Of a stretch of 59,238 nt of DNA, positions 29,122-47,239 are shown one piece after another. Within the stretch, counting starts at the first letter, position 1, and the number at the start of each line of letters is the position of its first letter. The position numbers and the translations under genes were made by a program. Below the pieces are notes generated by a model. That model did not search any database. It was not told the origin of the DNA and saw only the letters and a program-made list of their open reading frames with translations. The stretch lies in the IMG/VR virus record IMGVR_UViG_3300037067_011443. One strand, 5' to 3'. Source of the DNA: an uncultured virus (IMG/VR IMGVR_UViG_3300037067_011443). Taxonomy: Duplodnaviria > Heunggongvirae > Uroviricota > Caudoviricetes.

Positions 29122-30406
29122 AAAATTGAGGTGACATTATGGAAAAACAATTAACTAACAAATGGAAAGAACATATAAGAAAAATGGTTGAATATTCTAA
29201 AAAAGCAAATAAATTAAAAGATGAGTTAGATGAATATTTAATTAGTAAAGGATTTACTAGTGAAATATATGAAACAACAATGTTTGAGGACAGTATTATT
29301 GATTGTATGATACAACAAGGGGATTGGGAAGATTTAATTGATGAAATAGAATTAGAAATGAATGAGTTAAGAGATGAAAAGTTTGAAATAATTGCACAAG
29401 AAAGAATCAGACAGAATCAGAAACATAATATTCAAAATATAGATGAAGGATTAAATGGTTGGTTATCTCCTTTAGGTATATTTTATCAATGTTCTCAATT
29501 TGATTTTGACAATTATTATAGAACATTACTATTACTAATTAAAGAAAACAAATATGGAGATTTAGTTGAAGAAGATTTACTTTATGATAATGGTTGGATT
29601 AATTTTATTAGTAGTAAAAGAAATAACGAGGAATATGTGTTTTTTAAACCAATGGGTAATCTTAATCTGAGAGTGACTACCGAACAAGTTGAATTCATTA
29701 ATCAAAATTTTAATGATTTAACTTCAGAACAACAAGCTATGGCAAAAGTAATTATAACTGATTATATTTAATTTGCTATAGAAACGATATTTTATCAACA
29801 TTTTGGAAGGGAATTAGTATGCAGATAAAAATTAAGAAAAGAACTCCATATAGAAGAGATATTGAAAGAGAAATTAAAATTGGAGAAATTCATGATATTA
29901 CAGAAATAAGACCTAAGAACGGAAATTTGCAATCCAAAGCATATTTCTTTATGGTTGATGGTAGAGAAAGAATAGTACTAGATAGTGATTGTGTAGTAAT
30001 ATAGAATAGGAGTTATTTTAAATATGGCAGATTTAAATATATATTATCACAAACAAACAAATTCATGGTGGATTAATAAAGAAATGGATGGGTTTACTTT
30101 CAAAAATTATGTTATCGAAAATCCTGTTGGTCTAGGTAGAATTGAAATGAATACTAATAATAAGTTAGAAATTACAGATTTATATGAAATTGATTCAGCT
30201 TTTATACCAAGTCATATAAAAAAGTTAAATGGTATTACAGAAGAAATAGAGGAAAATGGATTAGAGAATGCTGTAAAAGTTTCAGATAAAGAGTTAAAAG
30301 ATTTGCTAAAATAGTTTATAGAATGGTTATTTGGTTTTGTTTTTATAAAACTATATGGAATAAATTACAATGTTAATGTATTATTAATATGAAAGGGATT
30401 AAAAAT

Positions 30407-30700
30407 ATGTTTTTATATGTGGATGATATAAGAAATCCTATATCAAATAGTTGGAATGTTGCAAGAAATTACAGAGAAGCTATTACTTTAATTGAAAATA
30501 ATAATATACAATTTCTTTCTCTTGACCATGATTTAGGAGAAAGGAAAACTGGATATGATATTGCTAAATTTATCGTTGAAAAAGGTATTGAGATAAAACA
30601 AATTAATATTCATTCTGCTAATCCTGTTGGTAGAGATAATATTATACAATTGATTAAGCATTATTTTCCTAATACTGTTGTAACATGCGATAAAATATAA
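30407..30700 (+). CDS. cyclic-phosphate-processing receiver domain protein
   Basis: LYVDDIR, SLDHDLG, TGYD and IHSANPVG motifs. Confidence 0.8.
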   Translation: MFLYVDDIRNPISNSWNVARNYREAITLIENNNIQFLSLDHDLGERKTGYDIAKFIVEKGIEIKQINIHSANPVGRDNIIQLIKHYFPNTVVTCDKI

Positions 30701-34865: not shown

Positions 34866-34945
34866 CTATTAATAATATAATTATTGCATATTTGGTAAAT
34901 GTGTGCTATGATTATATTATTCTATTTTTGGAGGTAATTACATAT

Positions 34946-35851
34946 ATGATTAGAAATATTGGTTTCTGTTGTATGTCAAAAAAATGTAATACATATTATA
35001 AAACTTTTAGGTTAGCATCATTTAGTGAACAACGGCTATATTCAACAGTTATACATAATGTACAAGAAACAGAACGTACTATTAAACAATGTATATTAGC
35101 TGACTGCTATATGTTTAGACTAAGCTCTGATTTAGTACCATTTGCAAGTCATGAGGTTATTAAGGGTATAAATTATATTAATTGGATTAATTTAGATTTG
35201 AAACGTATTGGTAAATTAGCAAAGGATAATAATATAAGATTGAGTATGCATCCATCTCAAATGTGTGTATTAAGTTCACCTAGTCAAAATGTGGTTAAAA
35301 ATTCAGTTAAAGATTTAATATATCATTACAATATACTTAATACAATGAGTATAAAAGGCGATATCGTCATTCACACTGGTGGAGTATATAGAGATAAGGT
35401 TTCTGCAATGAAAAGGTTTATAAAGATATTTAAGAAGCTACCAGAGCCATTACAAAATAGTATAGTGTTAGAAAATGATGATAAGTCATATACTATTAAT
35501 GATGTAATGAAAATATATGAGTATACTGGTTTGAAAATTGTACTTGATTTGCATCATCACTACTGTAATAATAATGGTTCTAAATTAGATATTAAGAGTG
35601 TATTTAATACTTGGATTCAAACTAATAGTATTCCTAAAATACATATTAGCAGTCCTAAGAGTTCACAAGAGTTTCGTAGTCATGCTGATATGATTGATTT
35701 TAAGTATGTAAAAAAGTTTATTGACAAAAATGATAATAAATATTTATATGATATTATGATTGAAGCAAAGTCTAAAGATTTGGCAGTAGAGCAATTTAAA
35801 ATTGATTATAAGAATAATAAAATAAATTTTGATAAATGTATTGCAATTTAA
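34946..35851 (+). CDS. uvsE: UV DNA damage endonuclease UvsE
   Basis: FRLSSDLVPFASH, RLSMHP, IHTGG, LENDD, LDLHHH, KIHISSP, HAD and MIEAK.KD motifs. Confidence 0.93.
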   Translation: MIRNIGFCCMSKKCNTYYKTFRLASFSEQRLYSTVIHNVQETERTIKQCILADCYMFRLSSDLVPFASHEVIKGINYINWINLDLKRIGKLAKDNNIRLSMHPSQMCVLSSPSQNVVKNSVKDLIYHYNILNTMSIKGDIVIHTGGVYRDKVSAMKRFIKIFKKLPEPLQNSIVLENDDKSYTINDVMKIYEYTGLKIVLDLHHHYCNNNGSKLDIKSVFNTWIQTNSIPKIHISSPKSSQEFRSHADMIDFKYVKKFIDKNDNKYLYDIMIEAKSKDLAVEQFKIDYKNNKINFDKCIAI

Positions 35852-38027
35852 AATCAAGTATGATAATATGTATTCATAAAATAAATTAAAGATTGGAGTA
35901 CATAATGATTAAATATTTAAATATTTTAAGGAATTATTTCATAGACCAAAATTAGTTTTTACAGATAGAGTAGATGGAATCTATATTACATTTGAGTAAG
36001 GAGTTAAAATTATTATATGTACATAACAAGAGATGATAGCAAGTCACCAGTACAAGATTTTTTAGATAATGTAACTCTAAAGTTAAACAGTAAGTTGTTA
36101 GCTGAGGCTGAAGAAAAGAATGGTATAGTAGTTGGATGGAATATAATACAAATTAAAATAAAATAACAGAAGAAGATATTTCATAAAAATATTAATTTGA
36201 AATTACTTAGAATATTTAGTATAATATACAAAACCAAAAAAGAGAGAAGGTTTATTTATGGTTGATTTTAGAAATATTTATAAAGATGTAATAAATAAAA
36301 TATATAATAATAAAACAAATTTAAAGTTAATAGAAGAATTTGATTCTAATGATTTAATTCAATCTGGATTAAATCAAATGAATTACATGGATTCTTTATC
36401 TTTTATAGAACAAATTATATGTTATAATAATATTTTAATTTTATTAACTACTTATGGACAATATTCTTTAACTAAAAGATATAATTATTCATCTTTATTA
36501 AATATAGATTGTATAAATGATGAAGATTGGGAAATTGGTTATGATGATTTTGAACAAGATGTAGAAAATAAATATATTTATGTTAGCACATATATACGTA
36601 ATATAGAACTTAATGGTTGGTGTCATTTAAAAATATTATCAAATGAGTTTGTAAAATATTTAGATGATGGTGGAGATATTACTATTTCAGAAGCAATGTT
36701 GAAACCTAAAACTAGAGCAAATGCTAAAGATATAAATATTTCAAAATTCTGTGAACATGTTTATGAATATTGGGATGTTTTTAAAAATTGGATAGTTCCA
36801 GATTATATGGAGGAATTACCTAATGATTGGGATAATTATAGTTTTATGAAAATCAAATTTATAATTAATAGAATGATGCAAATAGAATAACATGATAGAA
36901 TACTTGTTTCGTAGAAAGTGTAAAAATGGAGGACAAAATGAAAGGAATTAAAATATCAGAAAGTGATAGATGTCATGGATGTTTTTTATCTCCTAGATGG
37001 TTTGTAAAGATTATAGATGGATATTATAGATGTCCAGAGTGTAAAACACTATATAACAAGGTACATAACGGAATATATAAAGTAGTCGAAACGAAATAAG
37101 TGTTTTAACTTAATAAAAAAGGAGAATAATTATATGGATATATTAACTCAAGTACTAGATAAAATAGAAAAAACAATTGAAGTAGGTAGTATGCTGAATT
37201 TATTTGAGGTAGGTTTAGCCTTAAAGGTATTAGAAGATAGACTTTGGAGTATTGATGACACTTTAGCTCAAAGATGTAATAATTTGCAACACAAGATTTT
37301 TGGCGAATAAATAAAGAGGTGATAAAAATGAAAAAGATATTAGGTATTATGTTAGGAATTTGTATAGTAATAGGTTCAGCATATATGAGTTATATGTTAG
37401 GAAGTAAAATTATAGCTGATTATTATTTATATGGCACATTAGGAGTTGTTATAAGTTTTATAGTAGGTGTGATATTATTTAGCATAGTAATAGCTATTGT
37501 GTCAATAATTTTAAGAAAAATAAATATAAAAATAACTTAGAATTCTGAATCTATCCACTATTAAAATAAGTTTAAGGAGGCTAATTTATGATAAGAGACC
37601 CTATGTTAACCCAACAGGCAATATACATGTATAGAACATATCTATTATCCTTTAGTATGGATGATATTATAGATTGTAAAATATTATCTTTTGATGATTG
37701 GGTAATTAAAAATAAGATATTTGAAGAATATTGGAATAAGTGAAGGGAGATAAATTGATGAGAATTGAATTAAATATACAATCAGATAATCATAATTTAT
37801 ATTGTGAAAATAAAATACTTTTTTTTGAATTTTTTAATGATGGAGGAATTCGTGAAAATCATGTTTGGATAAATATAGATGGTAGAGAAGTTTCTGTAAA
37901 TAAAGATGAGTTAAAGAAAGTATTATCAATTCTTTAATAAGAAACAAAAACAAAATGTTATAAAAATCCTATTCCATAGTGTTTTATTAATAAAATAAAA
38001 TTATATAAGAAAGGCTGTGTAGTTAAA

Positions 38028-38462
38028 ATGTGTAAAGCTAAAAATTATTTAAATCAAATGCAAGAAATAATACATAATATTGATGAGGATTTTCAGTTTT
38101 ATAAAGCTGAAGAATATAAATTAAATTGTTTACAATCTGATTATCTTCATGCAATTGAAGCTACTGACAAGTTTAGTGCTTGCGAAGGATATAAATTAAC
38201 CAAAGAATTGCATAATTTAAGAGTTGAACGAAGAAATGTTAAAAATGAATTATATGCAATAGAACAATTTAGAGGAATGCTAGGTAACTTTAAAAAATCA
38301 ATATTATCTTATTCAGGAACATTAGAGAAAGTATTAGAAGCACAAACCAATGCAGTATATGAACCAAAATGTACTGAAAGTAAATCTATATATGAATTTG
38401 AAAAAATGATTAAAAACTTCAGAAATAAAAATGCAATGCAGAAAAAATATAAATATATGTAA
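38028..38462 (+). CDS. conserved phage-type coiled-coil hypothetical protein
   Basis: LHAIE...EGYKL...LRVERRNVKNE...YEP pattern. Confidence 0.6.
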   Translation: MCKAKNYLNQMQEIIHNIDEDFQFYKAEEYKLNCLQSDYLHAIEATDKFSACEGYKLTKELHNLRVERRNVKNELYAIEQFRGMLGNFKKSILSYSGTLEKVLEAQTNAVYEPKCTESKSIYEFEKMIKNFRNKNAMQKKYKYM

Positions 38463-38475
38463 AGGAGAAAATAAA

Positions 38476-39057
38476 ATGAGTATAATTATGTGTAAAGAAA
38501 AGATTAAAGAAACAAAATTAAGACAGGCTGAATGGCTTAATAATCAAGTTGTAACCGAAATTTTATTAATAAGTATAAAATTATCAAATCCAATACATAA
38601 ATTTGCTAAAACTGATTTAAGCAAGGAAATAAACAGGTTAAAAGAGAATGTAAATCCAAAAATAATAAATCCAATTGTAGTAAAATATAATGAAAAAGAT
38701 AATAGATATCACCTTATAAGTGGATTAAAGGGATATCACTTAGTTAAAGCAATTCATCAAGAATATATTCCTGCTATAATAGTAGATTATGATAGATATG
38801 AATATTGCAAGCAAGTTGGAATTAATGATAAATTAAAATTTGGATGGCGTAATATAAGCAGTATTATAATTCCTACCAAGTTTATTAATAATGGTGTATG
38901 TGAATGGAAGATACAAAAATGTATTGATTATTATAATAAGTACGAAAAGATGGATAAACCAGTTATATTGAGAAATAGAGTATGTTTAGATGGTTATAGT
39001 AGACTAGTAGCTAGTCAGCATCTTGGACTAGATAGAGTATTTGTTCAATATATATAA
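38476..39057 (+). CDS. protein with tandem ParB/Srx-like domains
   Basis: PIVV...YHLISGLKGY and PVIL...LDGYSRLVA motifs. Confidence 0.6.
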   Translation: MSIIMCKEKIKETKLRQAEWLNNQVVTEILLISIKLSNPIHKFAKTDLSKEINRLKENVNPKIINPIVVKYNEKDNRYHLISGLKGYHLVKAIHQEYIPAIIVDYDRYEYCKQVGINDKLKFGWRNISSIIIPTKFINNGVCEWKIQKCIDYYNKYEKMDKPVILRNRVCLDGYSRLVASQHLGLDRVFVQYI

Positions 39058-39086
39058 ATATTTGTAAATTTATTTTAATAATTCAC

Positions 39087-39115
39087 TTGACATTTAATCT
39101 TAGATATTATATACT
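39087..39115 (+). promoter_or_regulatory. sigmaA promoter of the mazF-TPR-peptide unit
   Basis: TTGACA-17-TATACT; TTATTTTAATAA at 39070-39081 just upstream; TACAT at 39145 in the leader. Confidence 0.75.
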
Positions 39116-39193
39116 ACTAATATAGTAATTATATTTAAACTATATACATACTAAATTTTATATTAGTAAATTTATAATAAGGAGTTAAAGTTA

Positions 39194-39763
39194 ATGAATA
39201 TTTTCAAAGGAGAAATTTGGAAAGTTAATTTATCAGATAAAATAAAAGAAGGTGTAAATACACAACGACAATTAGGGGTTAGACCTTGTTATATAAGTTC
39301 TAATAACTTGTATAATAAATATAGCCCTACTGTACAGATAATACCGTTTACGTCACAAGAGAAAAAATTTAGTCCAGTACATGTATATATACCTATGTCA
39401 TGTGGATTAACAAAAGTATCAACAGCATTAGTAGAGAAAGAAACTGACATTGATAAAACTGATTTAATTGAAAAAATTGGCGAATGTTCTATAGAAATTC
39501 AAAAAGAAATTGAACGAGCAATACAAAAACAAAAAGGTATGGTTGAACCATTTGATATTTATAGAGTTAAAAAACTAACAAATGCTATTATTCAAGTTTA
39601 TAAAAATAAAGAGTTAGATACTAGTGGATTAATTAAATCAGCATTACTTGATGAATTTAAATGGTATTGCGGTTCTTATGGTTATGATTATAAGCTTATT
39701 TTTAATAAATACAAGAACAACTGTAAAATTGAAAATAATGTTAGAAAACTTATAGCAATTTAA
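39194..39763 (+). CDS. mazF: PemK/MazF-family endoribonuclease with ~70-aa C-terminal extension
   Basis: KGEIWKVNL...QLGVRP...NKYSPTV.IIPFTS...HVYI...GL..VSTALVE...IDK..LIEKIG; the catalytic Arg and Thr positions appear retained. Confidence 0.85.
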   Translation: MNIFKGEIWKVNLSDKIKEGVNTQRQLGVRPCYISSNNLYNKYSPTVQIIPFTSQEKKFSPVHVYIPMSCGLTKVSTALVEKETDIDKTDLIEKIGECSIEIQKEIERAIQKQKGMVEPFDIYRVKKLTNAIIQVYKNKELDTSGLIKSALLDEFKWYCGSYGYDYKLIFNKYKNNCKIENNVRKLIAI

Positions 39764-39791
39764 ATAATACTTTTGTGGGAGGTTTTTTATT

Positions 39792-40400
39792 ATGACTACT
39801 CAAGAGAAAAAAGAGTTTATTAATGACATTTATAATAATAAAAATTATATAAAGTGCCTACAGGAATGCTTAAAGTTAGTAAAAATAATAAATAAGAATG
39901 ATATCTTTAGCTATGATATTTTATTTTACTTATATTATCGTATAGCAATTGTATATTCGATGCTTGGTAAATATAAATTGTCTTTAAAATATATAAAAAA
40001 ATCAAGAATGTATGCAGGAAATAGTGAAGATATTATTTTAGTTGATTGGAATTATTCTTATTGTTATTATAAGATGAATGATATAAAAAATGCTATAGAA
40101 TATATAGAAAAAGCAATACATGAATGTTTAGTAATCGAATCAGAATATTTATTATACGGAGCATTAATTCATAAAGCTTTATTAACAAATGATGAATTAT
40201 TAATGTTAGAAAGTATTAATAATATACAAATATTTGAAGAAACTGATAAAAAAATGGATGAATATAATACTGATTTATTTATGTTATATTTAAATAGTAA
40301 TAATATAGTAATGGCAAAACGAGTATTAAATAATATAAATACAATTTCTATTAAGCAAGTTCTTATTGAAAAAATATATGAATGTATTGAAAATATATGA
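39792..40400 (+). CDS. short TPR-like helical protein (RRNPP-like receptor candidate)
   Basis: YYRIAIVYSMLGKYKLSLKYIKKS and YSYCYYKMNDIKNAIEYIEKA are TPR-type repeats. Confidence 0.7.
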   Translation: MTTQEKKEFINDIYNNKNYIKCLQECLKLVKIINKNDIFSYDILFYLYYRIAIVYSMLGKYKLSLKYIKKSRMYAGNSEDIILVDWNYSYCYYKMNDIKNAIEYIEKAIHECLVIESEYLLYGALIHKALLTNDELLMLESINNIQIFEETDKKMDEYNTDLFMLYLNSNNIVMAKRVLNNINTISIKQVLIEKIYECIENI

Positions 40401-40463
40401 AAATATTAGTTTTTATATATTAATGCATTTTAATATAAATATAATTTAAGGAGGTAATTGATA

Positions 40464-40553
40464 ATGATTAATATGGTTACTAATCTTGCGCCACCTGCAC
40501 CAGCTCTTGCACCCCCAAGTCCAAATGAAACAACAATATTAAAGAAAAAGTAA
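40464..40553 (+). CDS. 29-aa Pro-rich peptide MINMVTNLAPPAPALAPPSPNETTILKKK
   Basis: Strong AAGGAGGT RBS; internal LAPP(A/S)P repeat; locally GC-rich codons; followed by a strong hairpin. Not in the ORF track. Confidence 0.7.
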   Translation: MINMVTNLAPPAPALAPPSPNETTILKKK

Positions 40554-40566
40554 GATTATGTTTATA

Positions 40567-40588
40567 GGAAGGGGAAATACCCCCTTCC
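40567..40588 (+). terminator. GC-rich stem-loop after the peptide gene (terminator or stabiliser)
   Basis: GGAAGGGG-AAATAC-CCCCTTCC; weak U-tract. Confidence 0.6.
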
Positions 40589-40624
40589 ATATATTCTATT
40601 AAAAAATTTAAGGGATTATATAAT

Positions 40625-41356
40625 ATGAATAAATATACAGAGCAATATTTTTCAGATTTAAATATAGTACATTATTATGCTGACGCAACTAAAAATATAG
40701 GTATTTGGAATTCAGAAAAATATCTTATTGAGCAGTATATAACAAAAGATTCTAATATATTAGACGTTGGTTGTGGAACTGGTAGAGTAAGTTTTGGATT
40801 GTATGAAGAAGGCTATAAAAATGTATCAGGAATCGATTTATCAGAAGCAATGATAACACAAGCTATAAATATAAATAAATCTAAAGATTATAATATAAGT
40901 TTTAAATGTGAAAATGCAGAAAATTTAAGTTTTAAAGACAATAGTTTTGATATGGTTATTTTTAGTTTTAATGGATTTTGTACTATACCAAACAAAGATA
41001 CTAGGTATAAAGTTATGAAAGAAATAAATAGGATTTTAAAGCCTTCTGGAACGTTTATTTTTATGGCTGATGACCAAAGATTAAAGTCAAAATATAAATG
41101 GTATTGGAATATAGAATTATCTAAATGGGCAAAAGCAAAACAAGACAAACGGATTTATGATTTTGGAGATTTAATATTTCTTGATAATAATATTGAAGTG
41201 TTTTTTCATTTCTTTGGTAAAGAGGAACTTATAGAGTTATTAAATAAATGTGGTTTTAAATTAATAAAGAATATATCTTTAAAAAGGTTTAAAGAACGAA
41301 AAGAAGTGTTAGAGTATTGTCCTTATGGTAGGTTTTGGATTGCACAAAAAATATGA
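40625..41356 (+). CDS. class I SAM-dependent methyltransferase
   Basis: ILDVGCGTGR, GIDLSEAMI, AENLSFKDNSFD, RILKPSG. Confidence 0.9.
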   Translation: MNKYTEQYFSDLNIVHYYADATKNIGIWNSEKYLIEQYITKDSNILDVGCGTGRVSFGLYEEGYKNVSGIDLSEAMITQAININKSKDYNISFKCENAENLSFKDNSFDMVIFSFNGFCTIPNKDTRYKVMKEINRILKPSGTFIFMADDQRLKSKYKWYWNIELSKWAKAKQDKRIYDFGDLIFLDNNIEVFFHFFGKEELIELLNKCGFKLIKNISLKRFKERKEVLEYCPYGRFWIAQKI

Positions 41357-41530
41357 TTATAGTTAATATTAAAATTTGATTACAACAAGCATCAATATAA
41401 GATTTAAGTACTATATAATATAGTTATTAAGAATCATTTAATAATGAATTGTCGAATATATATAGTTATAGTCGATATGTTTAAATTGTATTGTTAACAA
41501 GTATCATGTATGATTAATTTATAGAAACTA

Positions 41531-41580
41531 TTGCAAATCTCAACGAATGGTAATATACTATTTTTAGAACACATGTTCTA
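41531..41580 (+). promoter_or_regulatory. sigmaA promoter with LexA/DinR (Cheo) SOS box
   Basis: TTGCAA (41531), 17 bp, TATACT (41554); TAGAAC-ACAT-GTTCTA at 41565-41580 matches GAAC-N4-GTTC over the +1 region. Confidence 0.8.
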
Positions 41581-41595
41581 TTTAGAGAGGAGAAA

Positions 41596-41919
41596 TTGTT
41601 TATGAAAACTACAAATGCAATGAAAGGGGAAAATAATTTTAAGGAGGGTACTGAAACGGATAATATTATTGTAATAATGGACAGTGTAAATAATTATGTT
41701 GATAAAGATTCTTTATTTATAGACAAAAAACTAAGAATAAGATATGTTTCATCCTCCACAATACTAAATGGATGTCATTATTTTACTAGCATTAAAATAG
41801 CTAATCAACATTTAGAGATACTACATAAGTTAAATAAAAAATATAAAACTAATTATTCTTTTAGAATAGAAAGTATAAATTATAATGATATAATTGAAAA
41901 AGAATTAATTTATACTTAA
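41596..41919 (+). CDS. hypothetical protein, predicted SOS-inducible
   Basis: GAGGAG RBS; directly downstream of the LexA box. Confidence 0.65.
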   Translation: MFMKTTNAMKGENNFKEGTETDNIIVIMDSVNNYVDKDSLFIDKKLRIRYVSSSTILNGCHYFTSIKIANQHLEILHKLNKKYKTNYSFRIESINYNDIIEKELIYT

Positions 41920-42019
41920 AAATATAAATTTCTGTTGACAATATGGTATGCAATTCATATAATATTACATATATAATAATTATATATTAAATAAGATTAT
42001 ATGAAGGTGAGGTATTACC

Positions 42020-43360
42020 ATGTTAAGAAACAGAATAGAATTAGAAAAAGAATTAAATGAGATAATAACTATAAATCAAGATTTAAGGGTAGCATCTAAT
42101 GCTATTAAAAATTTATTTATTGAAAAAGGTATATCTGTAGCAGAGTTTAATGATATTTGGACTAAACGAAAATCATTAAATGATATAGATATGCCTTCTT
42201 TATATGTGCTTACTAAATCATTATTTGAAATTACTCAAAATAAAAATATAAAATTAGAAGATTGGTTTACTGAGGTTGAAATTAGAGATGGAAATAATTA
42301 TGTTAGAGAAATATCTGAAGAAGAAAAAATTGAATATCCTATTGTTATTAAAAATGTTTTAAAAGGAAAAGAAGACCAATATATGGCATATATTCAAGGA
42401 AGCTTTATTAAATTGTTATTTTCTAGTGGTAAAATTCCATATAATTTTGATACACAGCGAAATCCAAAGATAAAAAAAGATGAATCCGATGAATTAATAA
42501 AAACAGCTAATATTAATCCTGAATCTGTTATGGAAATAGCCAAAGAAATGGATGATAAAACTTTTATTACAAATTGTATTACTTTAAATATTTTACAAGA
42601 TGGTACTGAGAAGTTTGAATATAATTCAAAAAGAGAATTGATTATATATTCTGGACAAATAAATCCTATTGATGGGTTTCATCGTATTCAAGCAATGTTA
42701 GTAGCATTAGCGGAAAATCCTTCTTTGGAGTATATTACTGAAGTTCGTTTCACTCATTGGGATGTACAAAAATGTAGAAATTTTATTTTTCAAGAAGATA
42801 AGAGAAATAAGATTGACAAACGATATATGAATAGTATTATTAATGTTAGTAAATGGGGTAATAAAGTTATTAGTTCATTAAACGAAAGTAATTCTGATAT
42901 TAAAGGAAAAATTGTTACAGATATAACTTATATTATAAAAAATAAAGCTTTAACAATGTTTGATATAATGTCAAATACTATTGATGAACTTTATGAAATA
43001 AAAACAAATAAAGATATGTTAGATTTATCAAAATGGTTAGGAACATTCTTTGACCAAATAATTGGTTCGTATCCTGATGAGTTTCTTAGTGAAATTGGAG
43101 AAACAAAATTAGTAAGTGTTATTAATATGCCATTAACATTTGTTGGATATTTAACATTATCTAAAGTTTTACAAAATGAAAGTAATTGGGAAGACAAATT
43201 AGGTGAAATGTTAGATAGATTAGATTTTAGTATAACTAATCCTCAATGGGATAAATTAGGTATTATTAAAAATAATAAAGCAATTTTGACATATTCAAAA
43301 CCAGCTATGACTAAAATAATCAATTTTTTTGAGAAAGAAGTAGGTATTATTAATGTATAA
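42020..43360 (+). CDS. DndB/DGQHR-domain protein, SPbeta YopQ-like
   Basis: YNFDTQR, ITLNI, IDGFHR and FIFQE motifs; size and position directly upstream of the MrpR-like gene. Confidence 0.75.
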   Translation: MLRNRIELEKELNEIITINQDLRVASNAIKNLFIEKGISVAEFNDIWTKRKSLNDIDMPSLYVLTKSLFEITQNKNIKLEDWFTEVEIRDGNNYVREISEEEKIEYPIVIKNVLKGKEDQYMAYIQGSFIKLLFSSGKIPYNFDTQRNPKIKKDESDELIKTANINPESVMEIAKEMDDKTFITNCITLNILQDGTEKFEYNSKRELIIYSGQINPIDGFHRIQAMLVALAENPSLEYITEVRFTHWDVQKCRNFIFQEDKRNKIDKRYMNSIINVSKWGNKVISSLNESNSDIKGKIVTDITYIIKNKALTMFDIMSNTIDELYEIKTNKDMLDLSKWLGTFFDQIIGSYPDEFLSEIGETKLVSVINMPLTFVGYLTLSKVLQNESNWEDKLGEMLDRLDFSITNPQWDKLGIIKNNKAILTYSKPAMTKIINFFEKEVGIINV

Positions 43361-44369
43361 TGAGGAATTAAAAAAGAGATATTTATCATCGTCAATATAT
43401 GATAGTAAAACTCAAAAAACTTATCTTTCTGATTTAAATCGTATTGGTGAATCTGAAGATTATTTTAAAAAGGATTTATTTAATTTCACATATGAACAAA
43501 TTGATGAAGCTTTAAAAGGTATTCAATTTAAAAAACAATCTTCAGTGGAACGAGCAGTTTCTACTTATAGAATGTATTCTAATTGGGCAAACCAAAATGG
43601 ATTTGTTCCTTCAAAAACTAATCTATGGGAACTATATACTATGGAAAAATTATCACAGTATGTTTGGGAGTATGCTTTAGATAATAGTTTTATAACTAGG
43701 GAACAATTATTTAATGATATTATTTCTAAAGTTGAAAATCCTTTAGATTATATTCCTACACTATTAACTTTTGAAGGTATTTATGGTAGGACTATGGACG
43801 AAATGATAAATTTAAAATACAAAGATATTAATTTTAAGACGGGTGTTGTAAAATTAACTAGTAACTCAGGAGAGCAAAGAAGTATTATTTTAAAAGATAA
43901 AAGAATACTAAATCTTATACAAGATGCAGAAATGGAGACCACTTATTATGCAGATAATGGTAGGTCTGAAGGATTTAATGCTAAATCAAGTATTATTATG
44001 ACACCTTTCGTAATTAGAAAAACTACTTTAAAAAGTATTATAAAATATGCCAGTAATGATGGTTTGTTTTATGGAAATGAAAAAGTTGGAGTAATGACAA
44101 TTGAAGCTAGATTTGCAAGAATATTTCGAGGATATAGACATCCAAATCCCAATAAATGCAAAGCACCTTTTGTTGAAGGATTTTCTTTCTTAAATGCAAC
44201 TAATATATTTAAATCTGGATATTTTGATTATTGTTTAAATATAGAGAAAGAAAAAGGAGAATTAGAATTTAAAGATTTTGAATTAGCTTGTGTAAGATAT
44301 GGTATTAGACCTGTCTTAGCATCAACATATAAAAAGCAATATTTAAATTGGAGAAATAGGTTAAAGTAA
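43353..44369 (+). CDS. MrpR/YopR-like lytic-cycle repressor (tyrosine-recombinase fold, probably catalytically inactive)
   Basis: MYNEELKKRYL...E.YF.KDLF.F; FEGIYG...EMINLKYKDI lacks the first catalytic Arg; NIFKSG replaces HxxR; overlaps the YopQ-like gene. Confidence 0.75.
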   Translation: MYNEELKKRYLSSSIYDSKTQKTYLSDLNRIGESEDYFKKDLFNFTYEQIDEALKGIQFKKQSSVERAVSTYRMYSNWANQNGFVPSKTNLWELYTMEKLSQYVWEYALDNSFITREQLFNDIISKVENPLDYIPTLLTFEGIYGRTMDEMINLKYKDINFKTGVVKLTSNSGEQRSIILKDKRILNLIQDAEMETTYYADNGRSEGFNAKSSIIMTPFVIRKTTLKSIIKYASNDGLFYGNEKVGVMTIEARFARIFRGYRHPNPNKCKAPFVEGFSFLNATNIFKSGYFDYCLNIEKEKGELEFKDFELACVRYGIRPVLASTYKKQYLNWRNRLK

Positions 44370-44827
44370 ATTGAGGTGAATAATTTTGGAAATAAATAAT
44401 GAAATAGATTTAATAAAACATCTTGATAATCAAAGAAATTTTATTCTTTTTTATTTTAAAGAGACAATGACATTAGGTTATCAAAGAAACGAGAATAAAA
44501 AATTAGCTAATACTTTGGAATGTATAGAAAATTTATTGTTTAAGTTAACATTCTCAAATCTCAAACGCTTACTTTCAGAGTCTAGTAATAGAAGACTGAA
44601 AGAAATAGTTAGTGGAGAACAATTATTAATAGATATTATTAATTTGCCATTTGATTATAGATTGATTATTGATATGGAAAACATTGATGATATAGATACT
44701 TCTAACGCACTAGTATTCAAAGCTGTAAATAAAAAGTATTGTATGTTCAAACATAAGAATTATTGTAATAAGCAAGGTTTAGAATATGTGCGTGGGAAAT
44801 GGCAAAATATATGAAAGGGGTAAGATT

Positions 44828-45247
44828 ATGAATTTTGGTGAAAAATTAGAAATGTTAAGAATTAAATCAGGATTAAATAAAAAACAACTTGGAGAAAAAG
44901 TTGAAGTAGCTGCTGATACGATAAGTAAATATATAAAAAAAGAAACTGTAGAAGGAATTGATGCAATAGTTATAAAGAGAATTGCTGGTTTTTTTGGAGT
45001 TTATGTTGATTATCTGACAAATAATACTGAAAGTTTACTTATTGATATTCAAAAAGATGATTTAAATTATTTACACTGTGAAGAAAAAAACGATATAGAT
45101 TTAGTTAATTTTGTTAGTGAATTTAAGTATTATATAGAAACTTTAAATTTTGTTTATAACTCATCAAAACTAGAAACAGAAAAGAAGAAATATATAATAG
45201 ATTCATTAGGAATTGGATTAAAACTATTAGAAGAAAATTCTAAATAA
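44828..45247 (+). CDS. XRE-family transcriptional regulator
   Basis: FGEKLEMLR...LGEKVEVAADTISKY...IAGFFGVYVDYL. Confidence 0.85.
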   Translation: MNFGEKLEMLRIKSGLNKKQLGEKVEVAADTISKYIKKETVEGIDAIVIKRIAGFFGVYVDYLTNNTESLLIDIQKDDLNYLHCEEKNDIDLVNFVSEFKYYIETLNFVYNSSKLETEKKKYIIDSLGIGLKLLEENSK

Positions 45248-45265
45248 TAAAAGAGGATTATTATC

Positions 45266-45649
45266 ATGGGTAGAAAATCAAAGGAATATAGTAAAGAAGA
45301 ACTTATAAATAATTTAAAAATTAAATATGAAGAATTGGGTAAAAGACCAATTATGGCTGATATGTCTAATCCTTTTCCCTCGGCATATTTAAGAGTTTTT
45401 AAAACTTGGCGTAATGCATTAAAAGAAGCCGGATTAGATAAAGCTACAATAAATAAAAAGACAATTCTTGAAAATATATTAACAGGTGAAAAATCAAGGC
45501 TCAGATATAATAAGTGTATATGTTGTGGACAACCTTCAAATGGATTAATTATGAAAGGTAATCAAGTTAGAAGTGCATTTTGTAAAAATTGTTATATAGG
45601 AAAACTAATTGAATTACCTAAAGGTCAACGGTTTGAATATTTTAGATAG
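45266..45649 (+). CDS. homing-endonuclease-associated repeat plus zinc ribbon
   Basis: YSKEELI...ELGKRP...YLRVFKTWRNALKEAGL; CICCG...CKNC. Confidence 0.65.
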   Translation: MGRKSKEYSKEELINNLKIKYEELGKRPIMADMSNPFPSAYLRVFKTWRNALKEAGLDKATINKKTILENILTGEKSRLRYNKCICCGQPSNGLIMKGNQVRSAFCKNCYIGKLIELPKGQRFEYFR

Positions 45650-46687
45650 ATAACTTATAAGGGCTTTATAGCCCTTCCTATATAATTAAATAAAATAGTA
45701 AATAAAGGGGATGACAAAATTGAGAAGTAAAGAGTTTAAGTTTACAAAAATAAAAAAAAGAAAGATATATGAAACATGGATTAATAAAGATTATAAATCT
45801 AAAATTGTCATATATATTCTTAAAACGCCAAAGAATTATATAAATAGTGAGTATTATCACTTCCAAATCTCAAGTACTAAGAGTTTAAAATATGATATAA
45901 GATATGATTCCATATATGATTTACAAATATTTAATACATATAATGAAGTAGAGAATGCAGTAAAGAATTGGTGGCATAAGAATTTAAAAGGCTAATATAG
46001 TCTTCTTTTTATATTTTATTGTTATTAAAATAAATTTACGTAATATATATTGACATGTAAAAGTGTATGTGATATTATGTATTTGTAAGATAAAGGTAGA
46101 TACATAAAAAGTGCAGCAAATTGGAATTTTATAATAAGTGGAGGAAGATAAATGAAAGAGTTAATTGTTAAGGGTAAAGCAAGTCAATTAAATGGATTTG
46201 ATTGGGAGTTTGTAACAAGCGAAAAAAATTACTCATCAGATATATTAGTTGGAATTGATGAATTACTTGTTAGTAACAATATAGTAGTTATTGATAATAA
46301 TGAAGAAATTGAAGTTGTCATTAGATTTAAAAACAGATTATAAATTCTGTGTTTTGAGTAAAGTTAAGGAGGGTTGTAATTATGAAACAAATGCCTAAAG
46401 GTATTAAAGACAAACTTAGAAGGTTATATAATCTAAAAGAAAAAGCTCAAGATTTAGAATTTATTTTAAGCGCTGATTTTCAGAAATATGGAATAGATAT
46501 TAATGATTTATCAGCTATGGGTAAGGGAGATGTGCAGACAGAAGCATATACTTTTATAACTTATGCTGAAGGTGATGTTGAAGAAAGTATTAATATGATT
46601 GAAAAAGTGTTTTTACATTATGCAAATAATAAAGAAATAACTGAATGAAATTAACCTTTCATAATAAATTTAGAGGAGGATACATAA

Positions 46688-47239
46688 ATGAAAACAAAAG
46701 ATATTCCACAATTAATTACTGATGGAAATTGGGAATGTGATTTTACATTAAAAGATTTAGTTAATAGAATAGAAGAGATGCAAGTCGATAATAAAAGGTA
46801 TAAAAAAACATTAGAAATGAATCCAGATTTTCAGAGAGGACACGTTTGGACTGAAGAACAACAAACATCTTTTATTGAAAGTTTGTTACAAGGTGGAGCT
46901 AAAAATGCTAGAGTTATTTATTTAAATTGTCCTGACTGGAATAATGAAAGTAATTTATATTATCATGATTTTGTTTGTGTAGATGGGTTACAAAGATATA
47001 CTGCGATAAAAAGATTTATAAATTATGAAATTAAAGCATTTGGATTATATTTAAATGAATATGAGGATGAAGAAATATTCCATGGAAAGAGTTTTTATAT
47101 GAGATTAAATATTAATCATCTACAAACTAGAGCTGAAGTGTTAAAATGGTATTTACAGGTAAACGATGGAGGTACACCTCATACTAAAGAAGAAGTTAAT
47201 AAAGTAAAAAAATTATTGGAGGAAGAAAAATGCAAGTAG
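46688..47239 (+). CDS. stand-alone DUF262 domain protein
   Basis: MNPDFQRGHVWT, VDGLQRYTAI, VNDGGT. Confidence 0.85.
   Translation: MKTKDIPQLITDGNWECDFTLKDLVNRIEEMQVDNKRYKKTLEMNPDFQRGHVWTEEQQTSFIESLLQGGAKNARVIYLNCPDWNNESNLYYHDFVCVDGLQRYTAIKRFINYEIKAFGLYLNEYEDEEIFHGKSFYMRLNINHLQTRAEVLKWYLQVNDGGTPHTKEEVNKVKKLLEEEKCK

What the first reader, a model, noticed from the sequence alone, without database searches (positions are those of the whole stretch)
39087..41356. Element-encoded MazF + TPR protein + Pro-rich peptide + methyltransferase at the position of the arbitrium locus
Seen: one promoter drives a MazF/PemK RNase with an extra C-terminal domain and no MazE, then a 202-aa TPR protein with no clear HTH, then an unannotated 29-aa peptide (LAPPAP-A-LAPPSP repeat, no signal peptide), a strong hairpin and a SAM methyltransferase. 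This sits just upstream of YopQ-like/MrpR-like genes. Known: in SPbeta/phi3T, aimR-aimP-aimX lie upstream of the yopQ-yopR(mrpR) repressor operon, and the decision works through the host MazEF. Inference: this is a variant lysis/lysogeny switch that carries its own MazF, controlled directly by a Rap-like TPR protein and a non-canonical, possibly methylated, peptide.
Basis: partly seen in the sequence, partly recalled or inferred. Interest (0 to 1): 0.88.

Follow-up and report, generated by a model that had tools for sequence, protein, structure and literature searches.

The report
Phage MazF variant heading lysogeny genes
A large SPbeta-like phage of anaerobic bacteria carries its own MazF RNA-cutting enzyme with an extra tail domain directly in front of its lysogeny repressor genes, and in some relatives a small cassette (TPR protein, proline-rich mini-gene, methyltransferase) is inserted there, which hints at a self-contained version of a decision circuit that Bacillus phages run through the host's MazF.

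Summary
All described features are in the sequence. The window is the lysogeny-control region of a ~25% GC SPbeta-like phage. The firm result is comparative. A MazF/PemK RNase with a conserved C-terminal three-helix domain ("MazF-ext") has its own consensus-like promoter and lies upstream of yopQ(sroE)-yopR(sroF/mrpR) homologues. This holds in the window and in 4 of 4 other phages where its context could be read (c-st, L002, L051, L053). The catalytic Arg and Thr are kept, and no MazE-like gene lies nearby.

The TPR protein, Pro-rich sORF, hairpin and class I methyltransferase behave as one optional cassette. The cassette is present as a block in 2 of 5 phages (window and L051, 30-43% protein identity) and absent as a block in 3 of 5. 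In both carriers the sORF is the only small ORF with a PPxP motif. It has a strong Shine-Dalgarno site and ends 13 nt before a GC-rich hairpin.

The TPR protein shows no detectable relation to AimR or Rap, has no HTH, and the peptides have no signal-like segment. This is therefore not an arbitrium or RRNPP system. All function is inferred.

The parts
38431..39057 (+). Upstream neighbour, a ParB_N-like protein of 208 aa. It is not part of the module and is not conserved at this position in relatives.
   Evidence: Pfam ParB_N E 6.9e-06, 26.5 bits against a cut-off of 26.3. The upstream genes differ in L051 (YopP-like integrase), L053 and L002.
39087..39115 (+). Sigma-A/sigma-70-type promoter-like site, TTGACA-17-TATACT, heading the MazF-ext transcription unit.
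   Evidence: 11 of 12 matches. A site with at least 11 of 12 matches lies upstream of MazF-ext in 5 of 5 loci. No transcript data exist.
39194..39541 (+). MazF-ext, N-terminal MazF/PemK endoribonuclease domain (residues 1-116).
   Evidence: PemK_toxin E 8.2e-16. AF2 model with pLDDT 92.1. Foldseek hits S. aureus and B. subtilis MazF, E about 1e-11, target TM 0.88-0.91. VIA-align Z 20.3 and 19.8. R30 and T53 align with catalytic Arg25 and Thr48.
39542..39763 (+). MazF-ext, C-terminal three-helix domain (residues about 117-189) with the motif E-F/L-K-x-Y-C-x-x-Y. Function unknown.
   Evidence: Helices at 122-137, 144-161 and 166-188. The domain is conserved in c-st, L002, L051 and L053. No shared Pfam family covers this part in 75 of 75 members. 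Only weak fold matches were found, the best being the NS1 RNA-binding domain at Z 7.8.
39792..40400 (+). All-TPR protein of 202 aa with no HTH. First gene of the optional cassette.
   Evidence: TPR_2 29.5 bits. The Atlas model has pTM 0.75 and all nearest clusters are TPR. Homologue in L051 at 29.6% identity over the full length, E 4e-19. Only 2 other relatives turned up in the 5.8-billion-protein search.
40448..40553 (+). Shine-Dalgarno AAGGAGGT (40448-40455) and the 29-codon Pro-rich sORF (40464-40553), which carries two PPxP motifs.
   Evidence: It is the only 1 of 734 small ORFs with PPxP. A syntenic 22-codon sORF with GPPTP and RPPKG lies in L051. GC is 0.38 against 0.19 and 0.25 in the flanking genes.
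40567..40588 (+). GC-rich hairpin, GGAAGGGG-AAATAC-CCCCTTCC, starting 13 nt after the sORF stop codon.
   Evidence: L051 has a 13-bp hairpin, also 13 nt after its sORF stop. Neither hairpin is followed by a clean U-tract.
40625..41356 (+). Class I SAM-dependent methyltransferase of 243 aa, substrate unknown. Last gene of the cassette.
   Evidence: Methyltransf_25 E 4.2e-24. Every NCBIfam match is below its curated cut-off. Only the SAM-binding core matches PADLOC mad2. 43% identity to the L051 homologue, E 1.7e-76.
41596..41919 (+). 107-aa ORF of unknown function, not conserved in relatives.
   Evidence: No family match. No BLASTP alignment to the L051 ORF at the same position.
41935..41963 (+). 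Second promoter-like site, TTGACA-17-TATAAT, directly upstream of yopQ.
   Evidence: 12 of 12 matches. L002 also has a 12 of 12 site before yopQ. None with at least 10 of 12 was found in L051 or c-st.
42020..43360 (+). YopQ/SroE homologue (DndB/DGQHR-like).
   Evidence: phrog_5732 E 1.5e-81 and DndB E 4.7e-11. tblastn to SPBc2 yopQ gives 27.6% identity over 97% of the query, E 6e-32.
43353..44369 (+). YopR/MrpR/SroF homologue (integrase-like master repressor family).
   Evidence: MrpR_N_CB E 4.8e-14 and phrog_5830 E 1.6e-46.
44386..45247 (+). Conserved 142-aa ORF and an XRE-type HTH protein downstream of yopR.
   Evidence: HTH_3 E 1.4e-05. Homologues sit at the same position in L003 and L053.

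Best explanation
This is the lysogeny-control region of a large SPbeta-like phage of a low-GC anaerobe.

Its conserved core is a phage-lineage-specific MazF endoribonuclease that carries an added C-terminal three-helix domain (MazF-ext). MazF-ext is the first gene behind its own consensus-type promoter. It lies immediately upstream, on the same strand, of the repressor pair yopQ/sroE and yopR/sroF(mrpR).

Shown: the architecture, the fold, the retained catalytic Arg and Thr, the absence of a MazE-like neighbour, and the recurrence of the linkage.

Inferred: MazF-ext is an active RNase that the phage expresses together with, or just ahead of, its repressor genes. It would supply from the phage genome the MazF activity that Bacillus arbitrium phages obtain from the host to restrain lytic gene expression and favour lysogeny. 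The C-terminal domain would be its regulatory handle, through autoinhibition, partner binding or RNA targeting.

The TPR protein, the PPxP sORF, the hairpin and the methyltransferase are a separate optional cassette inserted between MazF-ext and yopQ. Its peptide stays inside the cell. Either the peptide is a ligand or substrate of the TPR protein and methyltransferase, or the sORF is a cis-acting translated leader for the methyltransferase. In the leader model, a ribosome finishing the sORF 13 nt before the hairpin would stop it from folding, and stalling at the PP motifs would let it fold. The cassette is not an arbitrium-type secreted-peptide system.
For: Identity of MazF-ext:
- PemK_toxin E 8.2e-16. 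phrog_35650 matches over residues 1-176.
- AF2 model with pLDDT 92.1. MazF fold at Z about 20.
- R30 and T53 align to Arg25 and Thr48. They are nearly invariant in 75 family members. Their catalytic role was read in passages of PMC7354611.

Linkage:
- Loci found with MazF-ext queries, independently of yopQ, were c-st, L051 and L053. In 3 of 3, yopQ-yopR lie downstream on the same strand within 3 kb.
- L002 was found through YopQ and has MazF-ext about 100 nt upstream of yopQ.
- With the window, that makes 5 of 5.
- 5 of 5 have a TTGACA-17-TATnnT site with at least 11 of 12 matches upstream of MazF-ext.
- In c-st and L051 no site with at least 10 of 12 matches lies between MazF-ext and yopQ. 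Co-transcription is therefore plausible there.

Phage restriction: the C-terminal-domain profile found no MazF-linked match in 400 sampled Clostridia genomes.

Cassette behaviour:
- TPR (29.6% identity), sORF, hairpin and methyltransferase (43% identity) are present together in the window and L051. They are absent together from c-st, L002 and L053.
- The sORF is the only PPxP small ORF, 1 of 734 in the window and 1 of 147 in L051.
- The stop-to-hairpin spacing is 13 nt in both.
- There is no signal-like segment.

Literature frame:
- Host MazF promotes lysogeny in phi3T, and AimX and YosL inhibit it (PMC10769878, abstract and passages).
- YopM, encoded by the first gene of yopMNOPQR, binds MazE (PMC10516654, passages).
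- MazF spares the six-gene sro operon (bioRxiv 10.1101/2025.11.27.690993, passage).
Against: - No expression, activity or phenotype data exist for any member.
- Linkage rests on only five loci. One of them (L002) was ascertained through yopQ. The roughly 70 other family clusters could not be placed in context.
- YopQ-YopR modules exist without MazF-ext. These are the L003 remnant, the complete 172,685-bp phage behind L004 (0 matches in the whole record), SPbeta and the other listed SPbeta-like phages. MazF-ext is therefore not required by the repressor pair.
- In the window and in L002 a 12 of 12 promoter-like site separates MazF-ext from yopQ. The genes need not be co-regulated.
- The one test of 'MazF-proof' repressor mRNAs failed. 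Avoidance of UACAU in yopQ-yopR disappears under synonymous-codon shuffling (P(<=obs) 0.36 and 0.26) and is not seen in the other loci.
- Gene position next to a repressor is also where prophage defence and moron genes sit.
- The role of the C-terminal domain is pure inference. Its fold matches lie in the range expected for any small helical bundle.
- For the cassette, only two examples exist, neither hairpin has a U-tract, and nothing distinguishes the ligand, substrate and leader readings.
Confidence: 0.5

Rival explanations
1. The locus is an arbitrium-like lysis/lysogeny switch in which a Rap-like TPR receptor senses the Pro-rich, possibly methylated, peptide and directly controls the element's own MazF.
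For: - The gene order receptor, small ORF, hairpin, then yopQ-yopR mirrors SPbeta's aimR, aimP, stem-loop, yopM-R.
- The order mazF-ext, TPR, sORF, methyltransferase is conserved in L051 at 30-43% protein identity.
- TPR starts 28 nt (window) and 19 nt (L051) after the mazF-ext stop codon.
- TPR folds commonly bind short peptides (general knowledge).
- Two Atlas structural neighbours are HTH_3+TPR regulators of Bacillota, at TM 0.71-0.72.
Against: - hhalign of TPR against AimR gives probability 1.4%.
- No Rap, NprR, PlcR, Rgg, PrgX or AimR chain appears among PDB sequence matches up to E 10.
- Generic TPR proteins are closer structural neighbours, at TM 0.84-0.86.
- The protein is 202 aa with no HTH or other output domain.
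- The peptides are hydrophilic or Pro-rich with no signal-like stretch. Cell-to-cell signalling is therefore unlikely.
- 3 of 5 MazF-ext phages lack TPR, sORF and methyltransferase.
- No AimR-type family matched any window ORF of 90 aa or more.
Confidence: 0.1
2. MazF-ext is a prophage-borne defence or superinfection-exclusion gene (abortive-infection toxin). It sits next to the repressor genes because that is where lysogen-expressed morons sit. Its C-terminal domain keeps it inactive until another phage infects. It plays no part in the phage's own decision.
For: - PHROGs files both matching families under 'moron, auxiliary metabolic gene and host takeover'.
- 83 phage records carry MazF-like genes.
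- Toxin-antitoxin systems, MazEF among them, act as anti-phage defences (passage in bioRxiv 10.1101/2023.04.27.537455).
- MazF-ext has its own strong promoter-like site in 5 of 5 loci.
- No separate antitoxin is present.
- The slot between MazF-ext and yopQ holds variable cargo: CST028 in c-st, the cassette in the window and L051.
Against: - PADLOC has no match for MazF-ext.
- Morons are usually patchy. Here the same gene keeps the same place in phages whose YopQ proteins are only 25-49% identical.
- Plain phage MazF genes sit in other contexts, for example the replication region of an Agathobacter phage.
Confidence: 0.25
3. The locus is a toxin-antitoxin addiction module that stabilises a plasmid-like prophage. 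MazF-ext is the toxin. The downstream gene (TPR here, CST028 in c-st) or the toxin's own C-terminal domain is the antitoxin.
For: - A gene follows MazF-ext closely in the window, L051 and c-st.
- A ParB_N-like gene lies just upstream in the window.
- That c-st is kept as a plasmid prophage is recalled, not checked here.
- A subfamily of about 290 aa carries a conserved extra N-terminal domain of about 100 aa, which could be a fused regulator.
Against: - The downstream genes are unrelated to each other. TPR against CST028 gives a best E of 0.25.
- The downstream gene is absent in L002 and L053, where yopQ follows directly.
- No antitoxin family was detected.
- ParB_N is at the gathering threshold and is not conserved at this position.
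Confidence: 0.1

Closest known systems
Host MazEF arm of the arbitrium circuit in phi3T/SPbeta (AimX and YosL inhibit MazF; YopM/SroA-side proteins bind MazE; sroABCDEF = yopMNOPQR)
   Same: The phage family is the same. YopQ and YopR homologues are present. A MazF-type RNase is associated with the repressor operon, and the locus lies upstream of yopQ-yopR.
   Different: Here the MazF is encoded by the phage and carries an extra C-terminal domain. No aimR, aimP, aimX, yopM, yopN or yopO equivalents were recognised, and no MazE. Whether this MazF affects lysogeny is untested.
Canonical type II MazEF/PemIK toxin-antitoxin pairs
   Same: MazF fold at Z about 20, about 30% identity to S. aureus and B. 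subtilis MazF, and catalytic Arg/Thr conserved.
   Different: There is no adjacent MazE/PemI-type antitoxin. The protein has an added helical domain of about 70 aa with no Pfam family. The gene is first behind its own promoter rather than second in an antitoxin-toxin operon.
Clostridium phage c-st CST027 ('MazF-like growth inhibitor'; phrog_35650)
   Same: Full-length homologue including the C-terminal domain, 31% identity, E 9e-26. It has the same position, two genes upstream of the annotated YopQ and YopR homologues CST029 and CST030.
   Different: c-st has an unrelated 218-aa gene (CST028) in place of the TPR-sORF-methyltransferase cassette. The record's annotation names the genes but draws no link between them.
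RRNPP / arbitrium receptor-peptide pairs (Rap-Phr, AimR-AimP)
   Same: A TPR protein is followed by a short ORF and a hairpin, in a phage lysogeny region.
   Different: The receptor is half the size, with no HTH and no detectable homology. The peptide has no signal-like segment. A methyltransferase always accompanies the pair (2 of 2).
Translated leader ORFs that control a downstream gene through ribosome position or stalling (attenuation; polyproline/EF-P-dependent stalling). Recalled from general knowledge; no call tested it.
   Same: A short ORF with a strong Shine-Dalgarno site, consecutive Pro codons and a stable hairpin at a fixed 13 nt after the stop, followed by the methyltransferase start 28-36 nt later. 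This holds in both phages.
   Different: The hairpins lack U-tracts. No alternative (antiterminator) pairing stood out in the window. In L051 the fold pairs sORF Pro codons with the methyltransferase Shine-Dalgarno site, but this is one MFE prediction.

Membership tests
MazF/PemK endoribonuclease (PF02452) | MazF/CcdB-type SH3-like barrel fold and a family profile match | tested here: met
   PemK_toxin 58.6 bits against a cut-off of 23.1. Foldseek E 3.9e-12 to 9g48_A and target TM 0.91 to 4mdx_A. VIA-align Z 20.3 with rmsd 1.4 over 112 residues.
MazF/PemK endoribonuclease (PF02452) | Catalytic Arg and Thr (Arg25 and Thr48 of Bacillus MazF) | tested here: met
   R30 and T53 align to positions 25 and 48 of 4me7_A/4mdx_A. 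R30 and T53 are at least 90% conserved in 75 MazF-ext sequences. The role of these residues was read in passages of PMC7354611.
MazF/PemK endoribonuclease (PF02452) | Sequence-specific RNA cleavage | not testable with these tools
   Needs an enzyme assay. At the position where the family consensus has Q, the window protein has K82. The significance of this is unknown.
Type II MazEF toxin-antitoxin operon | Adjacent cognate antitoxin gene (MazE/PemI: AbrB, RHH or similar) | tested here: not met
   No antitoxin family matched ORFs within about 3 kb on either side, small ORFs included, nor the neighbours in c-st, L002, L051 and L053. An unrecognised antitoxin is not excluded.
Arbitrium system (AimR-AimP-AimX) | Receptor homologous to AimR (HTH plus TPR, about 380 aa) | tested here: not met
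   hhalign of the TPR profile against SPbeta AimR gives probability 1.4%. The protein is 202 aa and no HTH family matches. The TPR fold spans residues 1-200.
Arbitrium system (AimR-AimP-AimX) | Adjacent propeptide gene with a secretion signal | tested here: not met
   An adjacent sORF is present. Its best 10-aa hydropathy is 0.88 (window) and -0.97 (L051), against 2.97 for SPbeta AimP. The longest run free of charge and Pro is 4 and 3 residues, against 14.
Arbitrium system (AimR-AimP-AimX) | Location upstream of the yopQ-yopR repressor genes in an SPbeta-like phage | tested here: met
RRNPP receptors (Rap, NprR, PlcR, Rgg, PrgX) | Sequence or profile similarity to a known RRNPP receptor | tested here: not met
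   No such chain appears among the 27 PDB sequence matches up to E 10. All are generic or designed TPR, LGN or IFIT proteins. Two HTH_3+TPR clusters appear among Atlas structural neighbours but rank below generic TPR proteins. Fold-level kinship therefore stays open.
SPbeta-type repressor (sro) operon | YopQ/SroE and YopR/SroF(MrpR) homologues adjacent on one strand | tested here: met
   phrog_5732 E 1.5e-81, MrpR_N_CB E 4.8e-14 and phrog_5830 E 1.6e-46. tblastn to SPBc2 yopQ E 6e-32.
SPbeta-type repressor (sro) operon | The upstream members yopM, yopN, yopO and yopP | tested here: inconclusive
   No integrase or YopP-like family matched window ORFs of 90 aa or more at E <= 1e-5. A YopP-like integrase does precede MazF-ext in L051 and precedes yopQ in L004. 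The small proteins YopM, YopN and YopO were not compared directly.
Intrinsic (rho-independent) terminator | GC-rich hairpin followed by a U-tract | tested here: inconclusive
   The hairpin passes the scan, but its tail is ATATATTCTA. The L051 hairpin is followed by ATCATAAAATA. No transcript ends are available.

The most novel reading that the evidence does not exclude
Clostridial SPbeta-like phages have taken the MazF arm of the lysis-lysogeny circuit into their own genomes. A phage-borne MazF with a regulatory C-terminal domain is the lead gene of the sro-like repressor region and sets the balance between lytic and lysogenic gene expression. In a subset of phages its output is tuned by a private, non-secreted module. 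In that module a TPR protein reads a PPxP peptide whose level or state depends on translation (polyproline stalling) or on the co-encoded methyltransferase. This would be an intracellular counterpart of arbitrium that reports the cell's physiological state rather than phage density.
Probability: 0.12. Interest if true: 0.85.

Novelty: new variant of a known kind. Interest (0 to 1): 0.55.

Why it matters
Bacillus SPbeta-like phages were recently shown to make their lysis-lysogeny decision through the host's MazEF system. How that logic is carried into other hosts is an open question.

A phage-encoded MazF variant fixed at the head of the yopQ-yopR repressor region in distant clostridial relatives offers a concrete, testable answer: the phage brings the RNase itself. 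It also defines two new objects. One is an unstudied MazF architecture (MazF plus a three-helix domain, no MazE) with dozens of sequence clusters, found so far in large phage contigs and not in the 400 Clostridia genomes sampled. The other is a small TPR, PPxP-sORF, hairpin, methyltransferase cassette.

If MazF-ext turns out to be only a defence moron, the finding is an ordinary member of a known class.

Tried and rejected
1. UACAU (TACAT) avoidance as a sign of MazF-proof repressor mRNAs.
- The raw count in yopQ-yopR is 0 against 5.2 expected, second most depleted of all 5-mers.
- Under synonymous-codon shuffling the expectation is only 0.84 + 1.11, with P(<=obs) 0.36 and 0.26.
- The motif occurs in yopQ or yopR of L051, L053, L002, c-st, L003, L004 and SPbeta.
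- Rejected. The true cleavage motif of MazF-ext is unknown.

2. Complex prediction with the TPR alignment and the 31-aa form of the sORF: verdict 'no answer', scores 0.08 and 0.10 against a mark of 0.32. This is evidence neither way.

3. Expression. No RNA holder was listed among the sequencing runs. The four DNA runs (3 studies: groundwater and landfill metagenomes) hold near-identical contigs. The only differences are at 42104 and 44025, so no variation bears on the sORF.

4. Rfam at E <= 1 over 38000-46000: two chance-level matches, none at the sORF or hairpin.

5. The GC-rich repeat CTTGCRCCMCC occurs only twice, both inside the sORF. There is no sign of a dispersed binding site.

6. megablast of 39000-45300 against phages: no match. 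tblastn of the TPR protein against phages: no match.

7. Searches for more TPR/cassette loci.
- Viral scans with TPR alone, with the TPR alignment and with the methyltransferase alignment found nothing new.
- The metagenome scan returned the same phage (L005, 99.987% identical) and an unrelated locus (L006).
- The contigs of the TPR relatives P0002 and P0003 could not be fetched.

8. Genome searches.
- The full MazF-ext profile on 399 Clostridia genomes was swamped by chromosomal MazF (323 of 399). None of the 150 rows shown was an uninterrupted full-length match, and 218 rows were not shown.
- The C-terminal-domain profile gave 7 of 400 weak hits (E 9e-5 to 1e-3). Six lie in ORFs of about 725 aa. 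The one examined is GyrA/ParC-like. Treated as spurious.

9. Fold of the C-terminal domain: best non-MazF rows are the influenza NS1 RNA-binding domain (Z 7.8, rmsd 2.5, 68 residues), KaiA C-terminal domain and Tsi2 (Z about 6). All are below the level that is meaningful for helical bundles.

10. The first AF2 run with a 2-sequence alignment failed, pLDDT 46.8.

11. MT836918.1, listed with 90% coverage, is a high-GC contig with a plain 116-aa MazF.

12. PADLOC: only the methyltransferase SAM-binding core matches mad2.

13. Earlier findings of this scan: three look-ups, nothing returned.

Full report
WHAT IS THERE

The window has about 25% G+C, and nearly all long ORFs lie on the + strand. No whole genome is held for it.

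In 39087-45247 the sequence shows the following, in order:
- A promoter-like site TTGACA-17-TATACT at 39087-39115, 11 of 12 matches.
- A 189-aa ORF (39194-39763) whose residues 5-112 match PemK_toxin, E 8.2e-16. It matches phrog_35650 'MazF-like growth inhibitor' over residues 1-176.
- 28 nt later, a 202-aa TPR protein (39792-40400). TPR_2 scores 29.5 bits against a cut-off of 27, and no HTH matches.
- A 29-codon ORF (40464-40553, MINMVTNLAPPAPALAPPSPNETTILKKK) with AAGGAGGT 8 nt upstream.
- A hairpin at 40567-40588 with 8 pairs, 6 of them G-C.
- A class I SAM methyltransferase (40625-41356, Methyltransf_25 E 4.2e-24).
- A 107-aa ORF without relatives (41596-41919).
- A second promoter-like site with 12 of 12 matches (41935-41963).
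- A YopQ/DndB-like protein (42020-43360; phrog_5732 E 1.5e-81) and an MrpR/YopR-like protein (43353-44369; MrpR_N_CB E 4.8e-14).
- A conserved 142-aa ORF and an XRE-type HTH protein.

No MazE/AbrB/RHH-type family was hit in any ORF scanned. The scans covered the 11 neighbours, 56 further window ORFs of 90 aa or more at E <= 1e-5, and 9 small window ORFs plus 7 from relatives.

WHAT KIND OF ELEMENT

tblastn with the YopQ-like protein finds 38 phage records. All are large SPbeta-like phages of Bacillus, Geobacillus, Psychrobacillus, Staphylococcus, Mammaliicoccus and Clostridium (c-st, D-1873). SPBc2 yopQ is among them at 27.6% identity over 97% of the query.

The rest of the window holds typical accessory genes of such phages: GmrSD_N twice, AntA, UvdE, ClpX-like and AAA ATPases, DUF1256, and HTH proteins. 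No AimR-type family matched any window ORF.

THE MAZF VARIANT

With a 75-sequence alignment, AlphaFold2 gives a confident model (pLDDT 92.1, pTM 0.75).
- Residues 1-118 are a MazF barrel. Foldseek gives E 3.9e-12 to S. aureus MazF and target TM 0.91 to B. subtilis MazF-RNA 4mdx. VIA-align gives Z 20.3 and 19.8.
- Residues 122-188 are three helices.
- R30 and T53 align with positions 25 and 48 of B. subtilis MazF. They are at least 90% conserved in the family. Passages of PMC7354611 state that Arg25 and Thr48 are the catalytic pair and that mutating them abolishes activity. The enzyme therefore looks competent.

The C-terminal domain has no shared Pfam family on this part in 75 of 75 members. 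It has only weak fold matches. The best is the influenza NS1 RNA-binding domain (Z 7.8, rmsd 2.5, 68 residues), which is within the range the tool warns is common for helical bundles.

Family size and distribution:
- An exhaustive HMMER search with a window+L002 profile found 6843 proteins at E <= 0.001, mostly plain MazF.
- Among the 150 best, I picked by eye 74 of 170-235 aa whose match runs into the C-terminal domain. Plain MazFs of about 115-150 aa and forms of about 290 aa were left out.
- The strict motif [EDQ][FLIMY][KRQ]x[YFW]Cxx[YF] is in 34 of the 150.
- Cluster look-ups for 10 of them show metagenome sources, some on contigs of 63-173 kb. The only names given are 'mRNA interferase MazF' and 'hypothetical protein'.
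- A profile of the C-terminal domain alone found nothing MazF-linked in 400 sampled Clostridia genomes.
- The variant is a real family that so far appears on large phage contigs.

THE CONSERVED LINKAGE

Loci reached with MazF-ext queries, and so independent of yopQ:
- Phage c-st: CST027, 31% identity over the full length (E 9e-26). It is followed by the unrelated CST028 and then by the annotated YopQ and YopR homologues CST029 and CST030.
- L051, a 172,909-bp viral contig.
- L053, a 135,434-bp viral contig.

In all 3 of these, yopQ-yopR homologues follow on the same strand within 3 kb.

L002 was reached through YopQ and has MazF-ext about 100 nt upstream of yopQ. With the window, that makes 5 of 5.

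Each of the 5 has a TTGACA-17-TATnnT site with at least 11 of 12 matches shortly upstream of MazF-ext.

From the yopQ side the gene is not universal:
- The Anaerovorax odorimutans locus L003 has yopQ, yopR, the 142-aa homologue and XRE, but no MazF-ext. Only plain MazFs occur elsewhere in that genome.
- The complete 172,685-bp phage behind L004 has YopP-like, YopQ and YopR and no match at all.
- SPbeta has yopP at that place.

THE CASSETTE

L051 carries, in this order:
- a YopP-like integrase
- a promoter-like site with 12 of 12 matches
- MazF-ext (40% identity to the window's)
- a TPR homologue (29.6% identity over the full length, E 4e-19)
- a 22-codon ORF, MFSEEKRLGPPTPQKPRPPKGR, behind AAAGGAG
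- a 13-bp hairpin
- a methyltransferase (43% identity, E 1.7e-76)
- two small ORFs
- yopQ and yopR

c-st, L002 and L053 lack TPR, sORF and methyltransferase together. The four elements therefore travel as one block: 2 of 5 present, 3 of 5 absent, no partial cases.

The intergenic DNA of the two carriers is not alignable beyond these features, yet the features are kept.
- Both have a strong Shine-Dalgarno site.
- Both have 6 prolines, in 29 and 22 codons, where the window's long frames have 1.65% Pro.
- Both share a motif (A/G)PP(A/S/T)P.
- Both have a TAA stop, exactly 13 nt, and then a GC-rich hairpin.
- The sORF is the only one of 734 small ORFs in the window with PPxP or two PP pairs. Its counterpart is the only one of 147 in L051. 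This is well beyond chance and argues that the sORF is translated or otherwise selected.

What the cassette is not:
- The TPR profile has no relation to AimR (hhalign probability 1.4%).
- It matches no RRNPP receptor among PDB sequences up to E 10.
- Its nearest structural neighbours are generic TPR_12 domains, at TM 0.84-0.86. Two HTH_3+TPR clusters rank lower, at 0.71-0.72.
- The peptides lack any signal-like segment. Hydropathy is 0.88 and -0.97, against 2.97 for AimP.
- The methyltransferase is a generic class I enzyme. Every NCBIfam match is far below its cut-off, and only the SAM-binding core matches PADLOC mad2.

HOW IT MOST LIKELY WORKS

Shown:
- the architecture
- the fold
- the catalytic residues
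- the lack of a recognisable antitoxin
- promoter-like sites
- the recurrence of the linkage
- the block behaviour of the cassette

Inferred: the following frame comes from passages read in three papers.
- In phi3T and SPbeta the host MazF favours lysogeny and is blocked by AimX and YosL (PMC10769878).
- The first product of the yopMNOPQR operon binds MazE (PMC10516654).
- MazF is said to degrade most phage mRNAs except the six-gene sro operon (bioRxiv 10.1101/2025.11.27.690993).

Against this background, the simplest reading is that these clostridial relatives carry the RNase themselves, at the head of the repressor region. The C-terminal domain would be the point of control.

I put this at about 0.5 overall. 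The structural and comparative part is high, and the functional part is low.

The main rival, at 0.25, is that MazF-ext is a lysogen-expressed defence or exclusion toxin with in-cis control.

For the cassette I cannot separate three readings:
- The peptide is an intracellular ligand of the TPR protein.
- The peptide is a substrate of the methyltransferase.
- The sORF is a translated leader. A ribosome terminating 13 nt before the hairpin would prevent it from folding, and polyproline stalling would allow it. The fixed 13-nt spacing favours a cis role. One MFE fold of L051 pairs sORF Pro codons with the methyltransferase Shine-Dalgarno site. No such alternative stood out in the window.

EVIDENCE AGAINST, AND GAPS
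- The test for MazF-resistant repressor mRNAs failed.
- In the window and in L002 a 12 of 12 promoter-like site separates MazF-ext from yopQ.
- Only five contexts and two cassettes are known.
- There are no RNA data (see Tried and rejected).
- The host is unknown. The same phage occurs nearly unchanged in groundwater and landfill metagenome runs of three studies.

NOVELTY
- Phage-borne MazF/PemK genes are known: 83 phage records, PHROGs families, and staphylococcal phages in PMC6507118 (passages).
- CST027 has been annotated beside YopQ and YopR homologues in the c-st record.
- I found no paper that describes the C-terminal-domain variant, its fixed place before yopQ-yopR, or the TPR-PPxP-methyltransferase cassette. 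The library covers open-access PMC and bioRxiv only, and no supplements were opened.
- I rate it a new variant of a known kind.

Noticed in passing
window 39111-39142 and 41962-41993: The stretches just downstream of the two strong promoter-like sites (before mazF-ext and before yopQ) are 78% alike (ATACTACTAATATAGTAATTATATTTAAACTA and ATATTACATATATAATAATTATATATTAAATA). The yopQ one is part of a palindrome at 41954-42005. This could be a shared operator for the MrpR-like repressor, or chance in AT-rich DNA.
   Followed up: no
proteins P0006, P0010, P0014, P0028, P0033, P0037, P0049, P0062, P0080, P0088, P0104, P0116, P0119: A subfamily of MazF-ext of about 275-305 aa carries a conserved extra N-terminal region of about 100 aa with no Pfam match. 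NCBI annotates members of the same 90% cluster from an internal start, at 202-204 aa. It may be a fused regulator or antitoxin domain, or an over-long gene call.
   Followed up: partly
window 50267-51238, 52192-53436, 53449-54000: The phage encodes an AAA ATPase, a ClpX homologue (zf-C4_ClpX plus AAA_2 plus ClpB_D2-small) and a DUF1256 protein in a row. A phage-borne unfoldase could bear on the turnover of regulators or antitoxins.
   Followed up: no
window 6344-7528, 46688-47239, 22979-23491, 30389-30700, 34892-35851: Further accessory genes: two GmrSD_N-domain proteins, an AntA/AntB antirepressor, a cREC_REC receiver-domain protein and a UvdE UV endonuclease.
   Followed up: no
window 44386-45247; L003 8328-9200; L053 8068-8924: A 142-aa ORF of unknown family and an XRE-type HTH protein follow yopR in the window, in the Anaerovorax locus and in L053, at 37-43% identity. 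The conserved repressor block may therefore be four genes long in this clade.
   Followed up: partly
L003 (Anaerovorax odorimutans DSM 5092 contig, 6001-9200): A bacterial genome carries yopQ, yopR, the 142-aa homologue and XRE at 38-51% identity to the window, without MazF-ext and with a 920-aa ORF on the other strand upstream. This looks like a small island or prophage remnant rather than a full SPbeta-like phage.
   Followed up: no
window 39000-44400 in runs X1-X4: Contigs from groundwater and landfill metagenome runs of three studies carry this stretch almost letter for letter. The only substitutions are at 42104 and 44025. L005, a JGI metagenome contig, is 99.987% identical over 7425 bases.
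   Followed up: partly
L051 6260-6275 and 6350-6362: In the minimum-free-energy fold of the L051 intergenic RNA, Pro codons of the sORF (CACCUC) pair with the Shine-Dalgarno region of the methyltransferase (GUGAGGU). The z-score is -3.29 against shuffles. Pro codons are natural anti-Shine-Dalgarno sequences, so sORF translation might unmask the methyltransferase start.
   Followed up: no
window 42000-45000: This is the only 3-kb bin of the window without a single TACAT on the + strand; the other bins have 3-12. Synonymous shuffling shows that amino-acid and codon composition explain it.
   Followed up: yes
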